Program-made: the position numbers and the translations under genes
Source: Candidatus Moraniibacteriota bacterium
GTDB lineage: Bacteria > Patescibacteriota > Minisyncoccia > Moranbacterales > UBA1568
Direction of reading: 5' to 3'
NCBI GenBank assembly: GCA_013334245.1
Contig: JAAXXZ010000001.1
Span: 54,675-118,674 of the forward strand
Length of the DNA stretch: 64,000 nt
In this document: positions 1,077 to 61,470 of the stretch, piece by piece
Layout: each line of letters opens with the position of its first letter
Position numbering within the stretch: position 1 is the stretch's first letter
Notes under the pieces: generated by a model
Databases searched by the model: none
Seen by the model: the letters and a program-made list of their open reading frames with translations, nothing else
What the model was told of the DNA's origin: nothing

Positions 1077-2237
1077 TCACTTGAAATTCCGCAGACCGAC
1101 GAACAGATACCTGGAGTCGAACGGGTCGTACGAGACGACGGAGGCGGAACGATCCGAGTTAAGCGCGGTGACCGACCACGTCGCCCCTTCGTTCGTCGAC
1201 CGATAGAATGTCTTTCCCGCGACGAAAACGATATTCTTCGAATCCCGAGGATCGACCGCGACCGACCGGATGGGAAATTTCTCCGCGCTCTCGATGATAT
1301 TGAGCTTGGTCCAATTCTTCCCGTCGTCGGTACTCCGATATATTCCCGAATCCGACGTACCCGCATACAGGACACCCGATCGCGAAGGATCGGCGACCAG
1401 GGTCAGCATCTGACCGGGCGCATCCGTCGCGTTTGCAGCCGACTGATCGATTCCTTTTCCCTGGAGTGCACGCGCCCTCGCCTCTTCCGCCTTCACGGTC
1501 TTCCAGTCGATCCACGTGTTTCCCCCGTCGAACGAGTGGTACATGCCCTGTCCATACGTTATGAAGGATATCGAATCGTGACGTTTCGCATCGAAGGTGA
1601 TATTCGAGATGATCCCGTACTCCGTTTTGCTGCCGAGATTCTTCCACGTCGCCCCCGCGTCGAGCGACTTCAACAGCGTTCCGGCATTCGTTCCCGCATA
1701 GATGACCTCCGCGTTCCACGGATCCTGCGCAAGCGAGGAAACGAACGTTTCGTTCCCCGGTTCCGTATAGACCTCGGTCCAATTGGATCCGTTGTCATCC
1801 GTCCGGAAAATCTTTCCGCGGCCGTTCACGACGCCGGAAACGAACATCCTGTTATCGGGATCCCTCCGATCGACGATGAAGCTGTAGATGCGTTTCGGCG
1901 GAAACGGGATAGGTAGCCAGGTCTCCCCGCCGTTATCCGTCTTGAACACCCCGTCATCGACGGTGCCGAGTACGATCGACTTCGGCTTGGTAGGGTGAAA
2001 AGCGATGGACAGTATGTCCGCCTTATCGATCATCCGGTTCGCATCAACGGTCGAACGGACCTGGAACGTAAGACCGGCATCCTCGCTTTTCCACACGCTG
2101 CCCTTCTCGTTCTTCGATACGAGCCCGCCCGGAACAGGCAATTGCAACTGACCGGTCGACGATGGTTGGGTACCGACCGAGCATCCCGACAACACTACCG
2201 CCATAAGCGGCACGAGAAACTGTATCGTTTTTTTCAT
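1077..2237 (-). CDS. secreted lipoprotein with BNR/Asp-box repeats (Ycf48/sortilin-like beta-propeller)
   Basis: Internal ATG (M31 of track ORF 1077..2327) gives MKKTIQFLVPLMAVVLSGCS, a lipobox signal peptide. There are multiple S-x-D-x-G-x-T-W repeats (TDNGGETW, TDDNGSNWT, SLDAGATW, SFDGGNTW, STDDGKNWT, STNEGATW). Confidence 0.6.
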   Translation of the reverse strand: MKKTIQFLVPLMAVVLSGCSVGTQPSSTGQLQLPVPGGLVSKNEKGSVWKSEDAGLTFQVRSTVDANRMIDKADILSIAFHPTKPKSIVLGTVDDGVFKTDNGGETWLPIPFPPKRIYSFIVDRRDPDNRMFVSGVVNGRGKIFRTDDNGSNWTEVYTEPGNETFVSSLAQDPWNAEVIYAGTNAGTLLKSLDAGATWKNLGSKTEYGIISNITFDAKRHDSISFITYGQGMYHSFDGGNTWIDWKTVKAEEARARALQGKGIDQSAANATDAPGQMLTLVADPSRSGVLYAGTSDSGIYRSTDDGKNWTKLNIIESAEKFPIRSVAVDPRDSKNIVFVAGKTFYRSTNEGATWSVTALNSDRSASVVSYDPFDSRYLFVGLRNFK

Positions 2238-2357
2238 ATTTGGGAGTTTTCCCGTGGGTTCCTGTTTTTTCAGTATATCAGAAGGACCCGAAAAGCAAAG
2301 TGGCGATTGACTCCCGACTTCGTACAAGCTATACTTCCCTTGTTTCCATTTTATGCC

Positions 2358-2446
2358 GGGTCGTTAGCTCACCCGAACGAAAGGCTTTACATAGCAATAC
2401 GGGCAGGGTTGGTAAATCCGCCAACTGGCGGAATTTCAGGTTAGCC
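2358..2446 (+). repeat. degenerate tRNA-Lys-derived repeat copy A: first 14 nt of tRNA-Lys (GGGTCGTTAGCTCA), a 36 nt insert, then GTTGGTAAATCCGCCAACTGGCGGAATTTCAGGTTAGCC carrying the TCCGCC-N4-GGCGGA palindrome
   Basis: Direct sequence comparison with the intact tRNA-Lys at 2718-2790 and with copies at 2791-2888 and 3717-3785. Confidence 0.6.
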
Positions 2447-2448
2447 TG

Positions 2449-2727
2449 ATGAATATGGATTCTCTGACGAGATACTCCATATATGTAATACAAAACGAAG
2501 CCGGTAAAAGATATATCGGATATACTTCTGATTTAGAAAAGCGGCTCAAGCGGCATAATGGGGATTTACCGAACAAAACGACGTCCTATACGCGGAAGAA
2601 TCGAGGACACTGGACATTGAAATACAAAGAGGAGTACGCTAGTAGACAGGAGGCATTACGGAGGGAAAAGGAATTGAAAAGTTGCCAAGGCAGAAAGTTT
2701 ATCACAGAGATACTCTCGGGTCGTTAG
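2449..2727 (+). CDS. GIY-YIG nuclease family protein (YhbQ/UPF0213-like small GIY-YIG domain)
   Basis: The 92 aa ORF has YSIYVIQNEAGKRYIGYTSDLEKRLKRHN, the GIY...YIG...R...H core. It is AT-rich (about 38% GC) against the 57% background. Its stop codon TAG is formed by bases 8-10 of the tRNA-Lys gene. Confidence 0.8.
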   Translation: MNMDSLTRYSIYVIQNEAGKRYIGYTSDLEKRLKRHNGDLPNKTTSYTRKNRGHWTLKYKEEYASRQEALRREKELKSCQGRKFITEILSGR

Positions 2728-2790
2728 CTCAGTTGGTAGAGCAGTGGCCTTTTAAGCCAACGGTCGCTGGTTCGAATCCAGCACGACCCA
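2718..2790 (+). tRNA. tRNA-Lys (anticodon UUU)
   Basis: Cloverleaf: acceptor GGGTCGT/ACGACCC, D-arm GCTC-AGTTGGTA-GAGC, anticodon loop CTTTTAA, T-arm GCTGG-TTCGAAT-CCAGC, discriminator A. No encoded CCA. Confidence 0.85.
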
Positions 2791-2888
2791 CACCGAGAAA
2801 ACATGCTCCATATCGATCAGTTGGTAGATCCGCCGGCTGGCGGACTGTTAAGCCAACGGTCGCTGGTTCGAATCCAGCACGACCCACC
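2791..2888 (+). repeat. tRNA-Lys-derived repeat copy C: leader CACCGAGAAAACATGCTCCATATCGATCA plus degenerate tRNA-like GTTGGTAGATCCGCCGGCTGGCGGACTGTTAAGCC...TTCGAATCCAGCACGACCCACC. It lacks a 5' acceptor strand and the anticodon arm is replaced by the palindrome TCCGCCGGCTGGCGGA
   Basis: 3' portion is identical to the tRNA-Lys 3' half. There is no GGGTCGT 5' strand, so no cloverleaf can form. The leader reappears in degenerate form after this copy (CCGAGAATAGACGCTCTATATCTATCAGTTG). Confidence 0.6.
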
Positions 2889-2919
2889 CCGAGAATAGAC
2901 GCTCTATATCTATCAGTTG

Positions 2920-3716
2920 TCCGAAATCCGCATTTGCCCTAGTGCTAAAATTAACAATTCAACAATATGACAACGAATAGATGTATCATAATTCATGGAT
3001 GCCCCTCTGATTCTGAAAAAGAGATGGATCCTGAAACAAGGACCTATGACAAGCACTGGATTCCGTGGTTAAAAAGAAATCTTATTGCAAAAAATATTGA
3101 AACGGAAACTCCCCTCATGCCATCGCCCTGGCAACCTGATTATGAAAAAATCAAAGCTGAGTTTGAAAAATATACTGTTGATGAAAACACAATCTTAGTG
3201 GGTCATAGTTGCGGTTGTGCCTTCTTGGTTCGATGGCTTGGTGAAACTAAGACCAAAATTTTTAAACTTTTTTTAGTCGCGCCTTGGAAAATTCCGCAAG
3301 AGAAAAGGAATGGTGCTGATGTAAATTTCTATACATATCAGATTGACCAGTCTATCAAGGACAGGATAAGTCAAATAGTTATGTTTACTGCGGACGATGA
3401 GGAGGAAGACGGAAAAAAAAGTTTAAAAATTTTTCATGATGTACTTGGTGGCGAGATTATCGAGCTAAAAGGGCGAGGGCATTACTGTTTGGACGATATG
3501 AAAACCGAGGAGCTTCCTGAGCTATTGGAAAAGATTTTGCAATAAGATTTCGAGGCATCCATTTCTTGCTAACAAGGACGGGCAAATGCGGACACCGCAC
3601 AACACTTCATATCCGGTTCAGGAATTTTTCACATTTATGATTCAAGGTAGGGAAAATTCCTTCTCCCAAATTTTTGTTCCGCTATCGCTGCACAAAAAAT
3701 TCGGATGATGCCGAAA
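2920..3716 (+). mobile_element. putative non-autonomous cassette inserted in a tRNA-derived repeat unit. AT-rich, carries the hydrolase gene, has internal inverted repeats TCCGCATTTGCCC (2927-2939) and GGGCAAATGCGGA (3580-3592), and is flanked by GTTG on both sides (2916-2919 and 3717-3720)
   Basis: The repeat unit ...ATCAGTTG|GTAGATCCGCC... is interrupted after GTTG at 2919 and resumes with GTTGGTAGATCCGCC at 3717. GC content drops to about 38% inside. Inverted 13-nt repeats lie near both ends. Confidence 0.4.
2967..3545 (+). CDS. alpha/beta serine hydrolase of the RBBP9/YdeN family (PF06821-like)
   Basis: 192 aa with N-terminal IIIHG, LVGHSCG nucleophile elbow (GxSxG), and C-terminal GHY motif. 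It is a paralogue of the CDS at 8266..8820. AT-rich codon usage. Confidence 0.75.
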   Translation: MTTNRCIIIHGCPSDSEKEMDPETRTYDKHWIPWLKRNLIAKNIETETPLMPSPWQPDYEKIKAEFEKYTVDENTILVGHSCGCAFLVRWLGETKTKIFKLFLVAPWKIPQEKRNGADVNFYTYQIDQSIKDRISQIVMFTADDEEEDGKKSLKIFHDVLGGEIIELKGRGHYCLDDMKTEELPELLEKILQ

Positions 3717-3785
3717 CGTTGGTAGATCCGCCGGCTGGCGGACTGTTAAGCCAACGGTCGCTGGTTCGAATCCAGCACGACCCAC
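3717..3785 (+). repeat. tRNA-Lys-derived repeat copy D (GTTGGTAGATCCGCCGGCTGGCGGACTGTTAAGCC...ACGACCCACC), identical to copy C body
   Basis: 69 nt identical to 2820-2888. No 5' acceptor strand upstream. Confidence 0.6.
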
Positions 3786-3793
3786 CGAAAACG

Positions 3794-3818
3794 AAAAGCC
3801 GCCATAGGGCGGTTTTTC
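3794..3818 (+). terminator. Rho-independent terminator-like hairpin AAAAGCCGCC-ATAG-GGCGGTTTTT
   Basis: GC stem 6 bp, 4-nt loop, followed by T5. Lies directly after repeat copy D. Confidence 0.5.
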
Positions 3819-3862
3819 GCTTGTGTCGGTCGAAGGCGAAGAAACGGGCACTTGACTGACAC

Positions 3863-4324
3863 TCATTCACTTATGGTTTTCCTCATCGGTATCAATAGCA
3901 ATCGGCGTCCCTCAAGTGGCTCCTTCGCAAGGACATCGACCGGCTCGACAGAGCTCCACCCGTTCGCCCTGAAAAATTCCACTGCGTTCGGCTCCGCACT
4001 CAGCAGCGCGGTCCGCTTTCCTCGTACCCGCAAACGCGCCTCCAATTTCGAAAGAATCTGTGTGCCGAGTCCCTGCAGACGATATTCCGGCCGCACGAAC
4101 ACATGCGTAACCCAACCGTCCTTCCGTGCCCGTCCGAATCCGGCGAATCGGTCGTTTTCCCAGGCGGTCAGGAACAGATCGCCTTCCCACGTGCGTATCT
4201 CATCCTCGGCAGGATCGTCAAACGCGACTTCGGATGCCGCATCGTCCACGTGCAAAAGGTCGACGATATCTTTCGCGCTGGCCGAACCGAAACCGTCACA
4301 CATTGAAAAGTTCGATCCGTTCAT
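3863..4324 (-). CDS. GNAT family N-acetyltransferase
   Basis: The 153 aa ORF has a GNAT-like core (HVFVRPEYRLQGLGTQIL), the acetyl-CoA binding Q/RxxGxG/A motif. ATG start overlaps the stop of the upstream gene (ATGA). Confidence 0.7.
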   Translation of the reverse strand: MNGSNFSMCDGFGSASAKDIVDLLHVDDAASEVAFDDPAEDEIRTWEGDLFLTAWENDRFAGFGRARKDGWVTHVFVRPEYRLQGLGTQILSKLEARLRVRGKRTALLSAEPNAVEFFRANGWSSVEPVDVLAKEPLEGRRLLLIPMRKTISE

Positions 4325-5313
4325 GCGATTTCTGTCTTATTGTCCGGACGCAACATCCTTGCCAGTGAACTCTTCGCTTCGAATATCCTCTTCGTCGCCT
4401 CGTATTTGGCCGCGTATTCGATATTGATCTTTATCCCGAACGCCCCGTTTTTTATATCACCGTCGAACATTTTCTTTCCCAGCTGCTGCCCCCACTTGCT
4501 GTTTCCATGCGCTACACATATTTCTTTCCGAATCTCTTCCGCCCGCCCACTCATATACGCTAAGAAGCCTGCCATAGTCGGCGCGGCGCCACTTCCCTCT
4601 TTTTCGATGCTTATCAGATATTTTCGGAAAAAGGTCGCATTATACCTGAGGACTCCGAATTTCTCCACGTCATCAGATTCGGAATATTCGCTCACTTCCT
4701 TGATGATCTCGGCGAACAGTTTCGCCGCACCCTTGGCAGATCCACCGATAGTCTTGGGATTGACATTGAACCGTCCCGCCGCCCACGGAGTCAGCTGAAA
4801 AGGCCCGCCCTTCCCCCACGTCTCGTTGTTCCAGAAAGACTCATACATGGATACCAACGCGAATGTCCTCGGAACGCTTTCCTTATCGAACTCATGCGAT
4901 ACGGTGCTCCAGTTTTGTCGGAGGCCGTCAATAGCGGAATCGAAATCGCCCGCGAAATCACCCTCCGTATACTGCCAAACCCAATAATCGACCATTTTTT
5001 CAAACTCTTCCATTCCGATCTCTTTCACGCCTTTCTCATAAGAGAACATCTCGTCCATGGGGTTTTCATGAACGTTTTCGGATTCAACGGATTCCGGTTC
5101 CTCCTGAGCTTTTCCGCGACCTTCGACGACCTCTTGTTCCTTTTTTCCATCGACCAGCAATTCATGGAGCGCACCTGCCCCTACCGCGGTCCCGGCCAGC
5201 ACTATTCCCGCATCCCGAAGAAACTTTCTTCTGCCTGGATCCGCCTCCGCGGGACGTCCCGCCTTTCTATCCGCAGCGCCTCCGACCGTTGGTTTTTCGA
5301 ATCCGAACGCCAT
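4321..5313 (-). CDS. hypothetical secreted protein with twin-arginine (Tat) signal peptide
   Basis: Internal ATG (M11 of track ORF, whose own start is TTG). RRKFLRDAGIVLAGTAVGAGA matches the Tat motif S/T-RRxFL followed by a hydrophobic stretch. The rest has no domain I can name. Confidence 0.5.
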   Translation of the reverse strand: MAFGFEKPTVGGAADRKAGRPAEADPGRRKFLRDAGIVLAGTAVGAGALHELLVDGKKEQEVVEGRGKAQEEPESVESENVHENPMDEMFSYEKGVKEIGMEEFEKMVDYWVWQYTEGDFAGDFDSAIDGLRQNWSTVSHEFDKESVPRTFALVSMYESFWNNETWGKGGPFQLTPWAAGRFNVNPKTIGGSAKGAAKLFAEIIKEVSEYSESDDVEKFGVLRYNATFFRKYLISIEKEGSGAAPTMAGFLAYMSGRAEEIRKEICVAHGNSKWGQQLGKKMFDGDIKNGAFGIKINIEYAAKYEATKRIFEAKSSLARMLRPDNKTEIA

Positions 5314-60867: not shown

Positions 60868-60939
60868 TGGGGAGTCGCCAAGCGGTAAGGCAACAGGTTT
60901 TGGTCCTGTCATACGGGGGTTCGAATCCCTCCTCCCCAA
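60868..60939 (+). tRNA. tRNA-Gln (anticodon UUG)
   Basis: TGGGGAGTCGCCAAGCGGTAAGGCAACAGGTTTTGGTCCTGTCATACGGGGGTTCGAATCCCTCCTCCCCAA closely parallels E. coli tRNA-Gln (UGGGGUAUCGCCAAGCGGUAAGGCACCGGUUUUUGAUACCGG...). Acceptor TGGGGAG/CTCCCCA, anticodon loop TTTTGGT. Confidence 0.85.
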
Positions 60940-60955
60940 CACGAGCATAGCGAGG

Positions 60956-61470
60956 GTTGGGGAGGAGGGATTCGAACGGGCAGGAACGATCCGCCAGCTG
61001 GCGGAGAGCGTAGATGAATGCGAGCGAGCGCAGCATTCAACTCTGCCCTGGACAAGGAGCGAAGCGACGCGAAAATCCCTCATAACAGATTGCATAGTGA
61101 GCGTTGTTGGGGAGGAGGGATTCGAACGAGCAGAAGCGATCCGCCAGCTGGCGGAGAGCGTAGATGAATGCGAGCGAGCGCAGCATTCAACTCTGCCCTG
61201 GACAAGGAGCGAAGCGACGCGAAAATCCCTCCCCCGCTCTAGCATAGCGAGGGTTGGGGAGGAGGGATTCGAACCGGTGACAGCAAAGCAAGGTAGAGTC
61301 CAGCAGGACGATACCGCCACGTTCGCCGACAAATGCGACCTTAGAAGCATTTGGCGCCACCGTGGACAAGAAGCCTTCCGTAGGAAGGTGACGCGAAAAT
61401 CCTTCCGCATATTCAAACACAGTGAGCGTTGTTGGGGAGGAGGGATTCGAACGAGCAGAAGCGACTACCC
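60956..61470 (-). repeat. tandem array of four MITE-like units (periods of about 150, 147 and 178 bp; last unit truncated). Each starts with GTTGGGGAGGAGGGATTCGAAC, the reverse complement of the tRNA-Gln 3' end. Units 1-2 carry the perfect palindrome TCCGCCAGCTGGCGGA and end in an imperfect terminal inverted repeat (..GCGAAAATCCCTCC)
   Basis: Units at 60956, 61106, 61253 and 61431. Units 1 and 2 are near-identical internally; unit 3 has a different core. ORF-track ORFs 60400..61416 and 60716..61489 across this region are artefacts of the repeats. Confidence 0.6.

What the first reader, a model, noticed from the sequence alone, without database searches (positions are those of the whole stretch)
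2358..2790. GIY-YIG nuclease ORF occupies exactly the body of a disrupted tRNA-Lys copy and ends inside the intact tRNA gene
The first 14 nt of tRNA-Lys (GGGTCGTTAGCTCA) occur at 2358-2371, followed by a palindrome-bearing degenerate segment. The AT-rich GIY-YIG ORF (2449-2727) starts two bases after that segment, and its TAG stop is built from bases 8-10 of the intact tRNA-Lys. Free-standing GIY-YIG genes embedded in tRNA clusters are known from T4 segB, where they act as homing endonucleases. The geometry here suggests a similar mobile nuclease that has invaded a tRNA-derived repeat, or alternatively a YhbQ-like housekeeping nuclease captured by the islet.
Basis: partly seen in the sequence, partly recalled or inferred. 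Interest (0 to 1): 0.6.

Follow-up and report, generated by a model that had tools for sequence, protein, structure and literature searches.

The report
Hairpin-tagged nuclease element in tRNA genes
A 90-residue nuclease gene sitting between the promoter and the body of a tRNA-Lys gene is one copy of a widespread, apparently undescribed family of ~300-400 bp elements that live in bacterial tRNA genes, each with a conserved 16-base hairpin and a duplicated piece of the tRNA.

Summary
A 15-nt tRNA-Lys 5' fragment (2357-2371) recurs at the start of the intact tRNA-Lys (2718-2791). A GIY-YIG ORF (2449/2455-2727) lies between the two copies, and its TAG stop is tRNA positions 8-10.

This geometry is a family trait, not a local accident. 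Of the 80 best relatives in species-representative genomes, 62 have a same-strand tRNA within 100 nt: Lys, Asn or Met in 58. Twenty-one ORFs end inside the tRNA, 15 of them at the same TAG.

Almost all loci also carry a hairpin, TCCGCC-N2-5-GGCGGA. It replaces a short stretch, usually one anticodon-stem strand, of a duplicated, dead tRNA copy. The tRNA-like flanks match the local tRNA, while the hairpin travels with the ORF.

A relative as close as the occupied ones has the same promoter and an identical tRNA-Lys, but no ORF, hairpin or pseudo-tRNA. The ORF is AT-rich and under strong purifying selection (dN/dS about 0.1). Its synonymous divergence from two of three relatives is clearly lower than that of flanking genes.

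By sequence and fold it is UPF0213/YhbQ/Slx1-like, not I-TevI/SegB-like. Best reading: a compact, homing-like selfish element using the tRNA promoter. The cleavage target and the hairpin's role are inferred, not shown.

The parts
2307..2335 (+). Sigma-70-like promoter TTGACT-17 nt-TATACT. It is the tRNA-Lys promoter and now also sits upstream of the ORF.
   Evidence: Best promoter-like site in 2150-3950, 10 of 12 matches. Both hexamers and the downstream TTGTTTCC are conserved in occupied relatives and in the empty site L095, where the tRNA follows directly.
2357..2371 (+). Left copy of the 15-nt direct repeat: tRNA-Lys positions 1-14 plus the preceding C. It lies where the original tRNA 5' end would be relative to the promoter.
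   Evidence: family D8; (tRNA positions 1-14); alignment with the empty site.
2372..2407 (+). 36-nt insert inside the decayed upstream pseudo-tRNA, ending ATACGGGCAGG.
   Evidence: The same ...ATACGGGCAGG insert is present in the upstream pseudo-copy of relative L093.
2408..2432 (+). D-loop remnant GTTGGTAAA followed by the signature hairpin TCCGCC-AACT-GGCGGA (2417-2432).
   Evidence: family D2 (three copies in the locus); predicted to fold as a hairpin.
2433..2448 (+). Degenerate remnant of the anticodon loop and variable region. It serves as the short 5' leader of the ORF.
   Evidence: About 60% identical by eye to GGCGGA-CTTGTAAGTCAACGGTACGGAC-ATG in L001. Intact equivalents, hairpin plus tRNA positions 32-44, appear in L010 and L093.
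2449..2727 (+). GIY-YIG nuclease ORF (92 aa from 2449; 90 aa from the annotated ATG at 2455). Its last 10 nt (2718-2727, including the TAG stop) lie inside the tRNA gene.
   Evidence: PF01541 E=5.5e-16. Catalytic-type residues are invariant in the alignment. dN/dS is 0.07-0.14. UPF0213/Slx1-like by sequence and fold.
2718..2791 (+). Intact tRNA-Lys(UUU), the live gene. Its first 14 nt are the right copy of the direct repeat.
   Evidence: ARAGORN; Rfam RF00005 at 73.9 bits. All 74 nt match the tRNA of the empty-site relative L095.
2817..2887 (+). Downstream pseudo-tRNA copy: tRNA positions 12-23, hairpin 2829-2844, then positions 32-74 carrying one change in the anticodon loop (CTGTTAA).
   Evidence: families D1, D2 and D14; (left match ends at position 23).
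2916..3603 (+). Passenger cassette with 24-nt imperfect terminal inverted repeats. It carries an AT-rich Ser_hydrolase ORF (2967-3545) and is inserted into the D-loop part of a further pseudo-tRNA copy.
   Evidence: inverted repeat I2; PF06821 E=4.4e-12. Absent in L001-L004 and L093.
3718..3785 (+). Last pseudo-tRNA copy: D-loop remnant, hairpin 3727-3742, then positions 32-74. It carries the original 3' flank.
   Evidence: families D1 and D2.
3799..3817 (+). Terminator-like hairpin CCGCC-ATAG-GGCGG followed by TTTTT. It corresponds to the terminator that follows the tRNA directly in the empty site.
   Evidence: Sequence read. The same hairpin is flagged on the minus strand. The equivalent in L095 and L093 is seen.
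60957..61155 (.). Further copies of the same hairpin (60990-61005, 61140-61155), embedded in inverted copies of the tRNA-Gln 3' end. There is no nuclease ORF beside them.

Best explanation
The ORF is the protein-coding core of a very small selfish element, about 360 bp here and 310-510 bp per unit elsewhere, that resides in tRNA genes.

Anatomy (shown). An ancestral locus of promoter, tRNA-Lys and terminator has been split. The promoter is now followed by a dead 5' copy of the tRNA. In that copy a conserved hairpin replaces tRNA positions 24-31 (the end of the D-stem, position 26 and the 5' strand of the anticodon stem). Next come a short leader, the 90-aa GIY-YIG nuclease ORF, and a complete tRNA that restores the gene. 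The ORF's last codons and stop are written in the tRNA's own 5' end. Hairpin and ORF are inherited together, whereas the tRNA-like flanks copy the local tRNA.

Mechanism (inferred).
1. The ORF is transcribed from the tRNA promoter as part of the tRNA precursor.
2. RNase P cleavage at tRNA position +1 would remove the stop codon, so only unprocessed precursors can yield properly terminated protein. This keeps nuclease levels low.
3. The nuclease, a single-domain relative of the structure-specific nuclease Slx1, makes breaks in or beside tRNA genes.
4. The breaks are repaired by homologous recombination, using an occupied locus as template. The promoter side finds long homology at the dead copy and the terminator side at the intact copy, so everything in between is copied in. 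This is homing as in T4 SegB.
5. Recombination among the tRNA-derived repeats produces the tandem arrays seen in many loci.
6. The hairpin is most likely the nuclease's own nucleic-acid ligand, acting as a tether, operator or immunity site. It marks the copy in which the cleavable stretch has been removed.
For: The association is a family trait.
- 62 of 80 relatives have a same-strand tRNA within 100 nt of the ORF. 58 of these tRNAs are Lys, Asn or Met.
- 21 ORFs end inside the tRNA. 15 use the TAG at positions 8-10, as here.

The hairpin is tied to the ORF.
- 93 exact copies lie within 400 nt of the ORFs (61.9 kb searched), against 3 in 211 kb farther away.
- In tRNA-Lys loci its flanks match the local tRNA up to position 23 and again from position 32. 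In Met and Asn loci the matches run to position 37/38 and resume at 48/49.
- Stem variants are compensatory: 7 cells changed on both sides, against 1.1 in shuffles, with 0 of 500 shuffles reaching 7. Loop length varies from 2 to 5 nt.
- Stem variants are shared by sister proteins that sit at different tRNAs or in different phyla: L053 (Met) with L081 (Val), and L066 (Bacteroidota) with L088 (Cloacimonadota).

Insertion rather than ancestral state.
- L095 has the same promoter directly followed by a tRNA-Lys that matches the window's at all 74 positions, then a terminator. It has no ORF, hairpin or pseudo-tRNA.
- L095 is as close to the window as the occupied relatives are (frr 83%, RseP 81%).

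The gene is functional but looks foreign.
- dN/dS is 0.07-0.14.
- ORF dS is 0.43 and 0.80 against L093 and L001, where the three flanking genes give 1.06-1.73 and 1.46-2.59. Against L014 it is 1.01, within the flanking range of 0.82-2.14.
- GC3 is 47% against 70-73% in neighbouring genes.

Other support.
- Protein clades follow tRNA type rather than host phylum.
- 14 of 92 loci have tandem ORF units spaced 310-508 nt apart. Pseudo-tRNA copy number varies among contigs that encode the identical protein.
- The tRNA promoter is conserved.
- Fold and sequence are UPF0213/Slx1-like.
- Precedent: SegB cleaves within tRNA genes, homes together with neighbouring tRNA genes (PMC2330249), and drives recombination-dependent segmental amplification (PMC13096335).
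Against: - No cleavage, binding or transfer has been observed. Steps 2 to 6 of the mechanism are inference.
- The live tRNA in the occupied genome is identical to the tRNA at the empty site. There is therefore no immunity substitution. A nuclease that recognises the tRNA sequence alone would also cut its own host's gene.
- The protein has no DNA-binding domain, so the source of site specificity is unclear.
- Strong purifying selection and dS up to about 1 within the clade show long vertical residence. That also fits a host-useful gene.
- Only one empty site was found. The presence/absence pattern could reflect loss rather than gain.
- The lower dS rests on 90 codons of unusual composition, and it holds for only two of the three relatives compared.
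- No relatives or hairpin-tRNA junctions were found in IMG/VR, and only weak hits in phage and plasmid collections. No vehicle for transfer between cells is known.
- Most loci are metagenome assemblies, in which repeat arrays can be misassembled.
- The neighbour-joining tree of 80-90 aa proteins has no support values.
Confidence: 0.6

Rival explanations
1. A host-beneficial (domesticated) UPF0213-type nuclease is co-transcribed with a tRNA. It would act on tRNA or its precursor, or keep the tRNA locus repaired or amplified. The hairpin pseudo-tRNAs would be its regulatory or substrate RNAs rather than scars of mobility.
For: - The ORF is under strong purifying selection and has been retained across a clade with dS up to about 1.
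- It is conserved at the same position in five related lineages.
- It sits in the tRNA transcription unit.
- A family relative in Radiobacillus abuts a tRNA m6A37 methyltransferase gene.
- SegB-driven tRNA amplification can benefit its carrier (PMC13096335).
Against: - It is absent from an equally related genome that has an identical tRNA and promoter.
- Its base composition looks foreign.
- The architecture of a dead, duplicated tRNA piece plus tandem units is what insertion and recombination leave behind, not what a regulated operon needs.
- It is linked to different tRNAs in the same phylum, with protein clades following tRNA type.
Confidence: 0.2
2. The hairpin-bearing pseudo-tRNA is a functional RNA or single-stranded DNA partner of the nuclease. 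The constant hairpin would be the protein's handle. The adjacent unpaired tRNA-derived strand would pair with the target tRNA gene, or with the tRNA itself, and so provide specificity.
For: - The locus combines a constant hairpin with flanks that always match the local tRNA.
- The protein is only 90 aa and has no DNA-binding domain.
- Replacing one strand of the anticodon stem leaves the other strand and the loop unpaired.
- Compensatory stem changes and variable loop length favour a folded single strand over a double-stranded palindromic site.
Against: - Flanks that match the tRNA are expected from duplication alone.
- The hairpin's position in the cloverleaf differs between classes: D-arm, either anticodon-stem strand, or T-loop.
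- G-T wobble variants show no strand bias.
- Folds of full pseudo-tRNAs are not clearly more stable than shuffles, with z-scores of -1.3 to -1.8 for three of four.
- No GIY-YIG enzyme that uses a guide is known to me.
Confidence: 0.08
3. The tRNA-derived repeats are att-site remnants of integrase-mediated islands that used tRNA-Lys. The GIY-YIG ORF would be passenger cargo of such an islet.
For: - tRNA genes are classic integration sites.
- Direct repeats of tRNA segments flank AT-rich DNA here, including the Ser_hydrolase cassette.
Against: - There is no integrase or other recombinase ORF in 2200-3900.
- The duplicated piece next to the ORF is the tRNA 5' end, not the 3' end.
- The same 300-500 bp unit recurs in 60 or more unrelated genomes with nothing else attached.
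- Relatives have the ORF without the islet.
Confidence: 0.05
4. The overlap of ORF and tRNA and the 15-nt repeat are a chance or assembly artefact, and the ORF is a spurious call.
For: - The source is a metagenome-assembled genome.
- Repeats can be misassembled.
Against: - The public assembly GCA_013336545.1 (L005) encodes the same 90-aa protein, keeps the ORF, hairpins and tRNA at the same spacing as the window, and has the same neighbouring genes.
- The Pfam hit is far above its threshold.
- dN/dS is about 0.1.
- The same stop-in-tRNA geometry occurs in 21 independent loci.
Confidence: 0.01

Closest known systems
Phage T4/T6 SegB, a free-standing GIY-YIG homing endonuclease in a tRNA gene cluster (PMC2330249; PMC13096335)
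   Same: - It is a GIY-YIG nuclease gene embedded among tRNA genes.
[quoted passage not shown]
- It is copied together with neighbouring tRNA sequence into genomes that lack it.
- It causes recombination-dependent tandem amplification of segments containing tRNA and segB. This parallels the tandem units seen here.
   Different: - SegB is a phage protein with a C-terminal extension whose truncation abolishes its toxicity (PMC13096335). The present protein is a bare 90-aa domain of the UPF0213/Slx1 branch.
- The present family is chromosomal and was not found in viral collections.
- It sits inside the tRNA gene's own transcription unit and overlaps the tRNA.
- It carries a conserved hairpin and a dead tRNA copy, which are not mentioned in the parts of the two SegB papers read here.
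UPF0213 / YhbQ (E. coli) / YazA (B. subtilis) single-domain GIY-YIG proteins (COG2827). Solved members: EF2693 (1ywl) and BH0048 (1zg2).
   Same: - They are the best sequence and structure matches.
- They have the same size and the same single-domain architecture.
- They share the YIG...R...HN...E motif pattern.
   Different: - Those proteins are treated as housekeeping proteins of unknown function. From my own knowledge, not checked here, yhbQ and yazA are not next to tRNA genes.
- The present subfamily is patchy, linked to tRNA and linked to a hairpin.
Slx1, the eukaryotic structure-specific endonuclease (URI/GIY-YIG domain)
   Same: - The nuclease-domain fold matches, with Foldseek probability 1.00 and TM-score of about 0.57 normalised to the query.
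- Slx1-Slx4 processes branched DNA substrates (PDB entry titles). This gives a precedent for structure recognition rather than sequence recognition.
   Different: - Slx1 has a RING/PHD-type zinc-finger domain and needs its partner Slx4 (PMC7017083). No partner or second domain is present here.
- Activity on hairpins is not shown for the present protein.
Integrative elements that insert into tRNA genes and restore them with a duplicated tRNA segment (established general knowledge)
   Same: - Insertion into a tRNA gene leaves the gene intact.
- It produces a direct repeat of tRNA sequence at the far end.
   Different: - Those elements use a tyrosine or serine integrase and usually the tRNA 3' end. 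Here there is no recombinase.
- The unit is only 300-500 bp.
- The displaced copy is specifically disabled by a conserved hairpin.
Hairpin-centred systems: REP elements with RAYT, and IS200/IS605 with TnpA (from my own knowledge)
   Same: - A short conserved GC-rich hairpin is repeated near, and also away from, a single small nuclease gene. Here the distant copies are those at tRNA-Gln.
- The stems covary.
   Different: - Those enzymes are HUH nucleases, not GIY-YIG.
- Their hairpins are not embedded in tRNA copies.
I-TevI autorepression through an operator that mimics its homing site (from my own knowledge; Edgell et al. 2004, not re-read here)
   Same: It gives a precedent for a GIY-YIG homing enzyme binding a non-cleaved site in its own locus.
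   Different: - I-TevI binds through a separate DNA-binding domain.
- The role of the hairpin here is untested.

Membership tests
GIY-YIG nuclease superfamily (Pfam PF01541) | A profile match above the curated threshold | tested here: met
   59.1 bits against a cut-off of 22.6, E=5.5e-16, covering residues 9-78.
GIY-YIG nuclease superfamily (Pfam PF01541) | Conserved catalytic-type residues: two Tyr in the GIY and YIG motifs, then Arg, His/Asn and Glu | tested here: met
   Y10, Y20-I21-G22, R30, H34-N35 and E71 are invariant in 9 sequences. They align with the equivalent motifs of 1ywl and 1zg2. Catalytic competence itself was not tested.
GIY-YIG nuclease superfamily (Pfam PF01541) | An alpha/beta fold with a three-stranded sheet | tested here: met
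   The AF2 model has mean pLDDT 79 and element order E-E-H-H-E-H-H. The top eight Foldseek matches are all GIY-YIG-domain proteins, with probability 0.99-1.00.
UPF0213 / YhbQ / YazA single-domain group | About 80-110 aa, a GIY-YIG domain only, and closest to solved UPF0213 members | tested here: met
   1ywl at 1.1e-9 and 1zg2 at 2.6e-9 are the best PDB sequence matches. 1zg2 is the best Foldseek match. The protein is 90-92 aa.
   It is absent from L095, which has the same promoter and tRNA. Beyond the closest relatives the neighbourhoods differ apart from the tRNA.
I-TevI / Seg-type homing endonucleases | An N-terminal GIY-YIG domain plus a linker and a C-terminal DNA-binding domain (typically 200 aa or more) | tested here: not met
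   The ORF is 90-92 aa and bounded by the tRNA. TIGR01453 gives 22.1 bits against a cut-off of 56, matching only residues 11-46. PHROG and PADLOC homing-endonuclease models match only the first 50 or so residues, and weakly.
I-TevI / Seg-type homing endonucleases | Patchy distribution, with occupied and empty alleles of the same site | tested here: met
   Occupied: the window, L001-L005, L013, L014 and L093. Empty: L095. All lie at similar host divergence.
I-TevI / Seg-type homing endonucleases | The enzyme cleaves the allele that lacks the gene, and is then copied in by repair | not testable with these tools
   This needs biochemistry and a donor-recipient assay.
tRNA-targeting integrative elements | Encodes an integrase or other recombinase | tested here: not met
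   The only ORFs with family hits in 2200-3900 are the GIY-YIG and Ser_hydrolase ORFs.
REP/RAYT and IS200/IS605 | An HUH (Y1) transposase associated with the hairpins | tested here: not met
   The associated protein is GIY-YIG. A profile search of the six-frame translation of the window finds only this one copy.
Group I intron in a tRNA gene carrying a homing endonuclease | An intron ribozyme interrupts the tRNA | tested here: not met
   Rfam at E up to 1 finds only the uninterrupted tRNA in 2000-4200. The tRNA is contiguous.

The most novel reading that the evidence does not exclude
The 16-nt hairpin is the handle by which a 90-aa GIY-YIG nuclease holds a single-stranded tRNA-derived nucleic acid (RNA or DNA). 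The unpaired flank of that nucleic acid base-pairs with the target tRNA gene. This would be a guide-like, retargetable homing system, and the smallest autonomous mobile unit described in bacteria (about 310-390 bp). It would explain how one protein family with no DNA-binding domain occupies Lys, Asn, Met, Val and His tRNA genes across many phyla.
Probability: 0.07. Interest if true: 0.95.

Novelty: new variant of a known kind. Interest (0 to 1): 0.72.

Why it matters
If correct, tens of thousands of genes annotated only as "GIY-YIG nuclease family protein" belong to a specific class of element that lives in tRNA genes. The family has 14,686 clusters at 50% identity with E up to 1e-3, and 1,993 with E up to 1e-10. 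The class would have a recognisable DNA signature: the hairpin plus a dead tRNA copy.

This would have several consequences.
- It would explain tRNA pseudogene arrays next to live tRNA genes in Patescibacteria, Bacteroidota and other phyla.
- It would give the uncharacterised UPF0213/YhbQ branch a concrete candidate substrate to test.
- It would extend the SegB idea, a nuclease that targets and amplifies tRNA genes, from phages to bacterial chromosomes.
- It would give annotators a way to avoid calling ORFs that read through hairpins and tRNA fragments. Such read-through is visible in many database proteins.

Because the unit is so small and its parts are so conserved, the mechanism should be directly testable with synthetic DNA.

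Tried and rejected
- **Group I intron or other known RNA.** Rfam found nothing except tRNAs, in the window at E up to 1 and in six hairpin-rich loci at E up to 0.1.
- **Phage or plasmid origin.** No relatives were found in IMG/VR. No hairpin-tRNA junction patterns were found in viral contigs. Phage and plasmid collections gave only hits of about 36-39% identity.
- **Defence-system membership.** PADLOC returned only a weak generic homing-endonuclease hit.
- **Integrase/att model.** Rejected, because there is no recombinase and the duplicated piece is the tRNA 5' end.
- **Hairpin as an intrinsic terminator.** It is followed by CTTTTAA in some tRNA-Lys copies. It is followed by CTGTTAA in the window and by non-T sequence in tRNA-Met loci, so this was rejected as a general role.
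- **Hairpin as a double-stranded palindromic site for a dimer.** Judged less likely, because loop length varies from 2 to 5 nt, half or more of the loops are not palindromic, and the stems covary.
- **Strand or RNA assignment from G-T wobbles.** There is no bias: 15 against 14.
- **Hairpin variants tracking protein clades as evidence of co-evolution.** Rejected as such evidence, since co-inheritance of linked parts explains the pattern. It does show that the hairpin travels with the ORF.
- **Which state came first in this clade: ORF stop in the live tRNA (window, L014), or in an extra pseudo-tRNA 84 nt upstream (L001, L093).** This cannot be decided. The two states interconvert by recombination between the 23-nt repeats. 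The fused state is the commonest in the family.
- **Literature.** Seven full-text searches found no description of this hairpin-tRNA-nuclease module. That is not proof that none exists.
- **Close syntenic relatives in the metagenome scan.** Only three were found (L093-L095). L094 is uninformative, because its contig has another gene and no tRNA in the 513 nt available.
Full report
**1.
- The 15-mer CGGGTCGTTAGCTCA occurs at 2357-2371 and 2717-2731 (family D8).
- The second copy opens an intact tRNA-Lys(UUU) at 2718-2791.
- Between them lies an ORF, 2449-2727, with the annotated start at 2455. It is a clear GIY-YIG domain: PF01541, E=5.5e-16.
- Its TAG stop is tRNA positions 8-10.
- The degenerate segment before the ORF contains the hairpin TCCGCCAACTGGCGGA at 2417-2432. 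The same hairpin recurs in two partial tRNA-Lys copies downstream (2829-2844 and 3727-3742) and twice near tRNA-Gln at about 61 kb. There are 7 matches with at most one mismatch, against 0.65 expected.
- The ORF is AT-rich, with GC3 of 47% against 70-73% in its neighbours.
- The window matches a Candidatus Moranbacteria assembly, GCA_013336545.1.

**2. Close relatives.**
- Contigs encoding proteins 84-93% identical keep the neighbourhood RseP, frr, BNR protein, ORF and tRNA-Lys (identities). They lack the Ser_hydrolase cassette, and L001-L004 also lack the GNAT segment. So the ORF is not part of that islet.
- In L001-L004, L013 and L093 the ORF ends at the same GGTCGTTAG. There, however, it is the start of an extra hairpin-bearing pseudo-tRNA, and the live tRNA follows 84 nt later. 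In the window and in L014 the ORF runs straight into the live tRNA.
- These two states differ by one recombination between 23-nt repeats. I cannot say which came first.
- Full-length pseudo-copies show what the hairpin does. In GGGTCGTTAGCTCAGCTGGTAGA-[hairpin]-CTTTTAAGCC... the 16 nt replace tRNA positions 24-31.
- The number of downstream pseudo-tRNA units differs among contigs that encode the identical protein.

**3. An empty site.**
- The metagenome contig L095 has a BNR protein 69% identical, frr 83% and RseP 81%. It is therefore as close to the window as the occupied L001 and L014 are.
- L095 has the same TTGACT-17-TATACT promoter and leader, followed directly by a tRNA-Lys that matches the window's at all 74 positions, then a terminator. 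It has no ORF, hairpin or pseudo-tRNA.
- In the window, the 14-nt fragment sits where that tRNA would start. The terminator follows the last pseudo-copy at 3799-3817.
- The locus therefore reads as a simple tRNA gene that has been split and expanded.

**4. The pattern is general.**
- More distant homologues at about 60% identity, from other Patescibacteria, show the same parts in unrelated neighbourhoods.
- In the Shapirobacteria locus L010 the order is tRNA-Lys(CUU) positions 1-23, hairpin, positions 32-44, 8 nt, ORF, then the intact tRNA. The ORF reads 37 nt into the tRNA and stops at the TAA of the anticodon loop. L012 has the whole 310-bp unit twice.
- A scan of one genome per species found at least 503 relatives, and the best 80 were fetched. 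Of these, 62 have a same-strand tRNA within 100 nt:
  - ORF before the tRNA: Lys in 29, Asn in 6 and His in 1, mostly Patescibacteria. A 37th locus (L082) is an ARAGORN call on a hairpin pseudo-copy and is left out here.
  - tRNA before the ORF: Met(CAU) in 17, Asn in 3, Lys in 3 and Val in 2. These are mostly Bacteroidota, Ignavibacteriota, Cloacimonadota, Acidobacteriota, Verrucomicrobiota and Hydrothermota.
- 21 ORFs end inside the tRNA, 15 of them at the TAG of positions 8-10.
- Exact hairpins number 93 within 400 nt of the ORFs (61.9 kb), against 3 in 211 kb farther away.
- The hairpin flanks match the local tRNA:
  - up to position 23 and again from position 32 in Lys loci;
  - up to position 37/38 and again from 48/49 in Met and Asn loci;
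  - in the D-arm in some Patescibacteria Asn loci;
  - occasionally a second hairpin lies in the D-arm or T-loop.
- 14 of 92 loci have two tandem ORF units 310-508 nt apart. One is the cultured isolate Dawidia soli, where the order is tRNA, terminator, ORF, then a full-length pseudo-tRNA with the hairpin, repeated.
- The family is large, with 14,686 clusters at 50% identity. Many database proteins carry N-terminal extensions that are simply translated hairpins (PPAGG, RQLAD, SASWR) or translated tRNA arms.

**5. The hairpin.**
- Its stem foot, TCCG/CGGA, is nearly invariant. Positions 5 and 6 change in a compensatory way, giving TCCGGC/GCCGGA, TCCGTC/GACGGA and TCCGCT/AGCGGA.
- There are 7 cells changed on both sides, against 1.1 in shuffles, and 0 of 500 shuffles reach 7.
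- Loop length ranges from 2 to 5 nt, and AGCT is the commonest loop. This favours a folded single strand over a fixed double-stranded site.
- G-T variants show no strand bias, so RNA and DNA cannot be told apart.
- Loci with a variant stem carry it in all their copies. Sister proteins share variants even when they sit at different tRNAs (L053 at Met, L081 at Val) or in different phyla (L066, L088).
- This shows that the hairpin is inherited with the ORF while the tRNA-like flanks are local. It does not by itself prove that the protein binds the hairpin.
- Rfam has no model for it.

**6. The protein.**
- The best solved relatives are the UPF0213 proteins EF2693 and BH0048 (about 1e-9). Slx1 follows at 1.7e-5 and I-TevI at 5e-5.
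- The AF2 model has pLDDT 79 and matches BH0048, Slx1 and EF2693.
- Homing-endonuclease family models match only the first 35-45 residues, below threshold.
- The protein is a bare catalytic domain with invariant Y, Y-I-G, R, H-N and E residues.
- It is under strong purifying selection, with dN/dS of 0.07-0.14.
- Synonymous divergence from the three relatives compared:

| Relative | ORF dS | Flanking genes dS |
|---|---|---|
| L093 | 0.43 | 1.06-1.73 |
| L001 | 0.80 | 1.46-2.59 |
| L014 | 1.01 | 0.82-2.14 |

- The lower values for L093 and L001 suggest exchange among lineages. The evidence is weak, resting on 90 codons of unusual composition.
- A neighbour-joining tree groups proteins by tRNA type rather than host phylum. 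For example, Moranbacteria have both a Lys-type and an Asn-type element, each nearer to the same type in other phyla. The tree has no support values.

**7. How it most likely works.**

Shown: the anatomy, the patchiness, the selection on the ORF, the promoter context and the tandem units.

Inferred:
- The ORF is transcribed with the tRNA from the tRNA promoter.
- Where the stop codon lies inside the tRNA, RNase P processing and proper termination of translation are mutually exclusive. This would limit nuclease output.
- The nuclease makes breaks at tRNA genes.
- Repair from an occupied locus copies the element in. The promoter side has long homology only with the dead copy, and the terminator side only with the live copy.
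- Recombination among the repeats then gives arrays.

Two experimental precedents exist for a GIY-YIG enzyme. T4 SegB recognises the tRNA T-psi-C motif and homes together with neighbouring tRNA genes (PMC2330249). In phage T6, SegB drives recombination-dependent segmental amplification of tRNA-containing segments (PMC13096335). That paper's survey covered viral proteins only.

Weak points:
- The live tRNA is identical in occupied and empty genomes, so there is no obvious immunity.
- There is no DNA-binding domain.
- No vehicle for transfer is known.
- The element has resided vertically for a long time.
- The hairpin's role as tether, operator, immunity site or guide is open.

**8. Comparison and novelty.**
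- The module works like a free-standing homing endonuclease gene at tRNA genes, with SegB as the model. It is not a member of the I-TevI/Seg family, because the two-domain architecture was tested and not met.
- It is a member of the UPF0213/YhbQ-like single-domain group by sequence and fold, but it fails the housekeeping expectation.
- It is not an integrase island, a REP/RAYT system or a tRNA intron.
- I found no description of the module of hairpin, dead tRNA copy and mini-nuclease in seven literature searches, in Rfam, or in the protein-family libraries.
- I therefore rate it a new variant of a known kind. Two caveats apply: the paywalled literature was not searched, and most of the evidence comes from metagenome assemblies.

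Noticed in passing
window 60957-61452 (tRNA-Gln is at 60868-60940): Four inverted copies of the tRNA-Gln 3' end (TTGGGGAGGAGGGATTCGAAC at 60957, 61107, 61254 and 61432) form a repeat array with a unit of roughly 150-180 nt. Two units carry the same hairpin, TCCGCCAGCTGGCGGA (60990 and 61140). No GIY-YIG ORF lies nearby. They could be acted on in trans by the single nuclease gene, or be relics of a lost element.
   Followed up: partly
window 2916-3603: A 688-bp unit with 24-nt imperfect terminal inverted repeats carries only an AT-rich Ser_hydrolase ORF (2967-3545, PF06821) and no transposase. It is inserted into the D-loop part (TCAGTTG | GTTGGTAGA) of a hairpin pseudo-tRNA. It is absent from relatives L093 and L001-L004.
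   Followed up: partly
L001 4348-4422: The structurally intact tRNA beside the element has anticodon ATT instead of TTT, while L002-L004, which encode the same protein, have TTT. Pseudo-copies in this clade vary at the same loop position (CTGTTAA in the window, CTATTAA in L093). This may be gene conversion from a dead copy into the live gene, or an assembly error.
   Followed up: no
L001-L004, positions 4440-4700: The number of 103-nt downstream pseudo-tRNA units is 1, 2 or 3 in contigs from different samples that encode the identical nuclease. The array appears to expand and contract within a population.
   Followed up: partly
protein P0036 (655 aa): A protein resembling a type I restriction specificity subunit (my reading of the sequence, not checked against any family library) contains two inserted GIY-YIG domains of this family.
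   Followed up: no
plasmid NZ_CP088021.1 11696-11908 (hit H1): A distant family relative (36% identity) in Radiobacillus lies under or next to a gene annotated as tRNA1(Val) (adenine37-N6)-methyltransferase. From my own knowledge this resembles the yabB-yazA neighbourhood in Bacillus. It hints at a wider link between UPF0213 proteins and tRNA.
   Followed up: no
loci L013-L092: 58 of the 62 tRNAs next to these ORFs are Lys, Asn or Met. All three read ANN codons, and their anticodon loops end in U36-A37-A38. The hairpin usually abuts that loop. The exceptions are Val(GAC) in 2 loci, His in 1, and one hairpin pseudo-copy that ARAGORN could not assign.
   Followed up: partly
window 2718-2727: Because the stop codon lies downstream of the RNase P cleavage site, a processed transcript would leave the ORF without a stop codon. 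This is an inference from geometry and was not tested. The same situation holds in 21 related loci.
   Followed up: no
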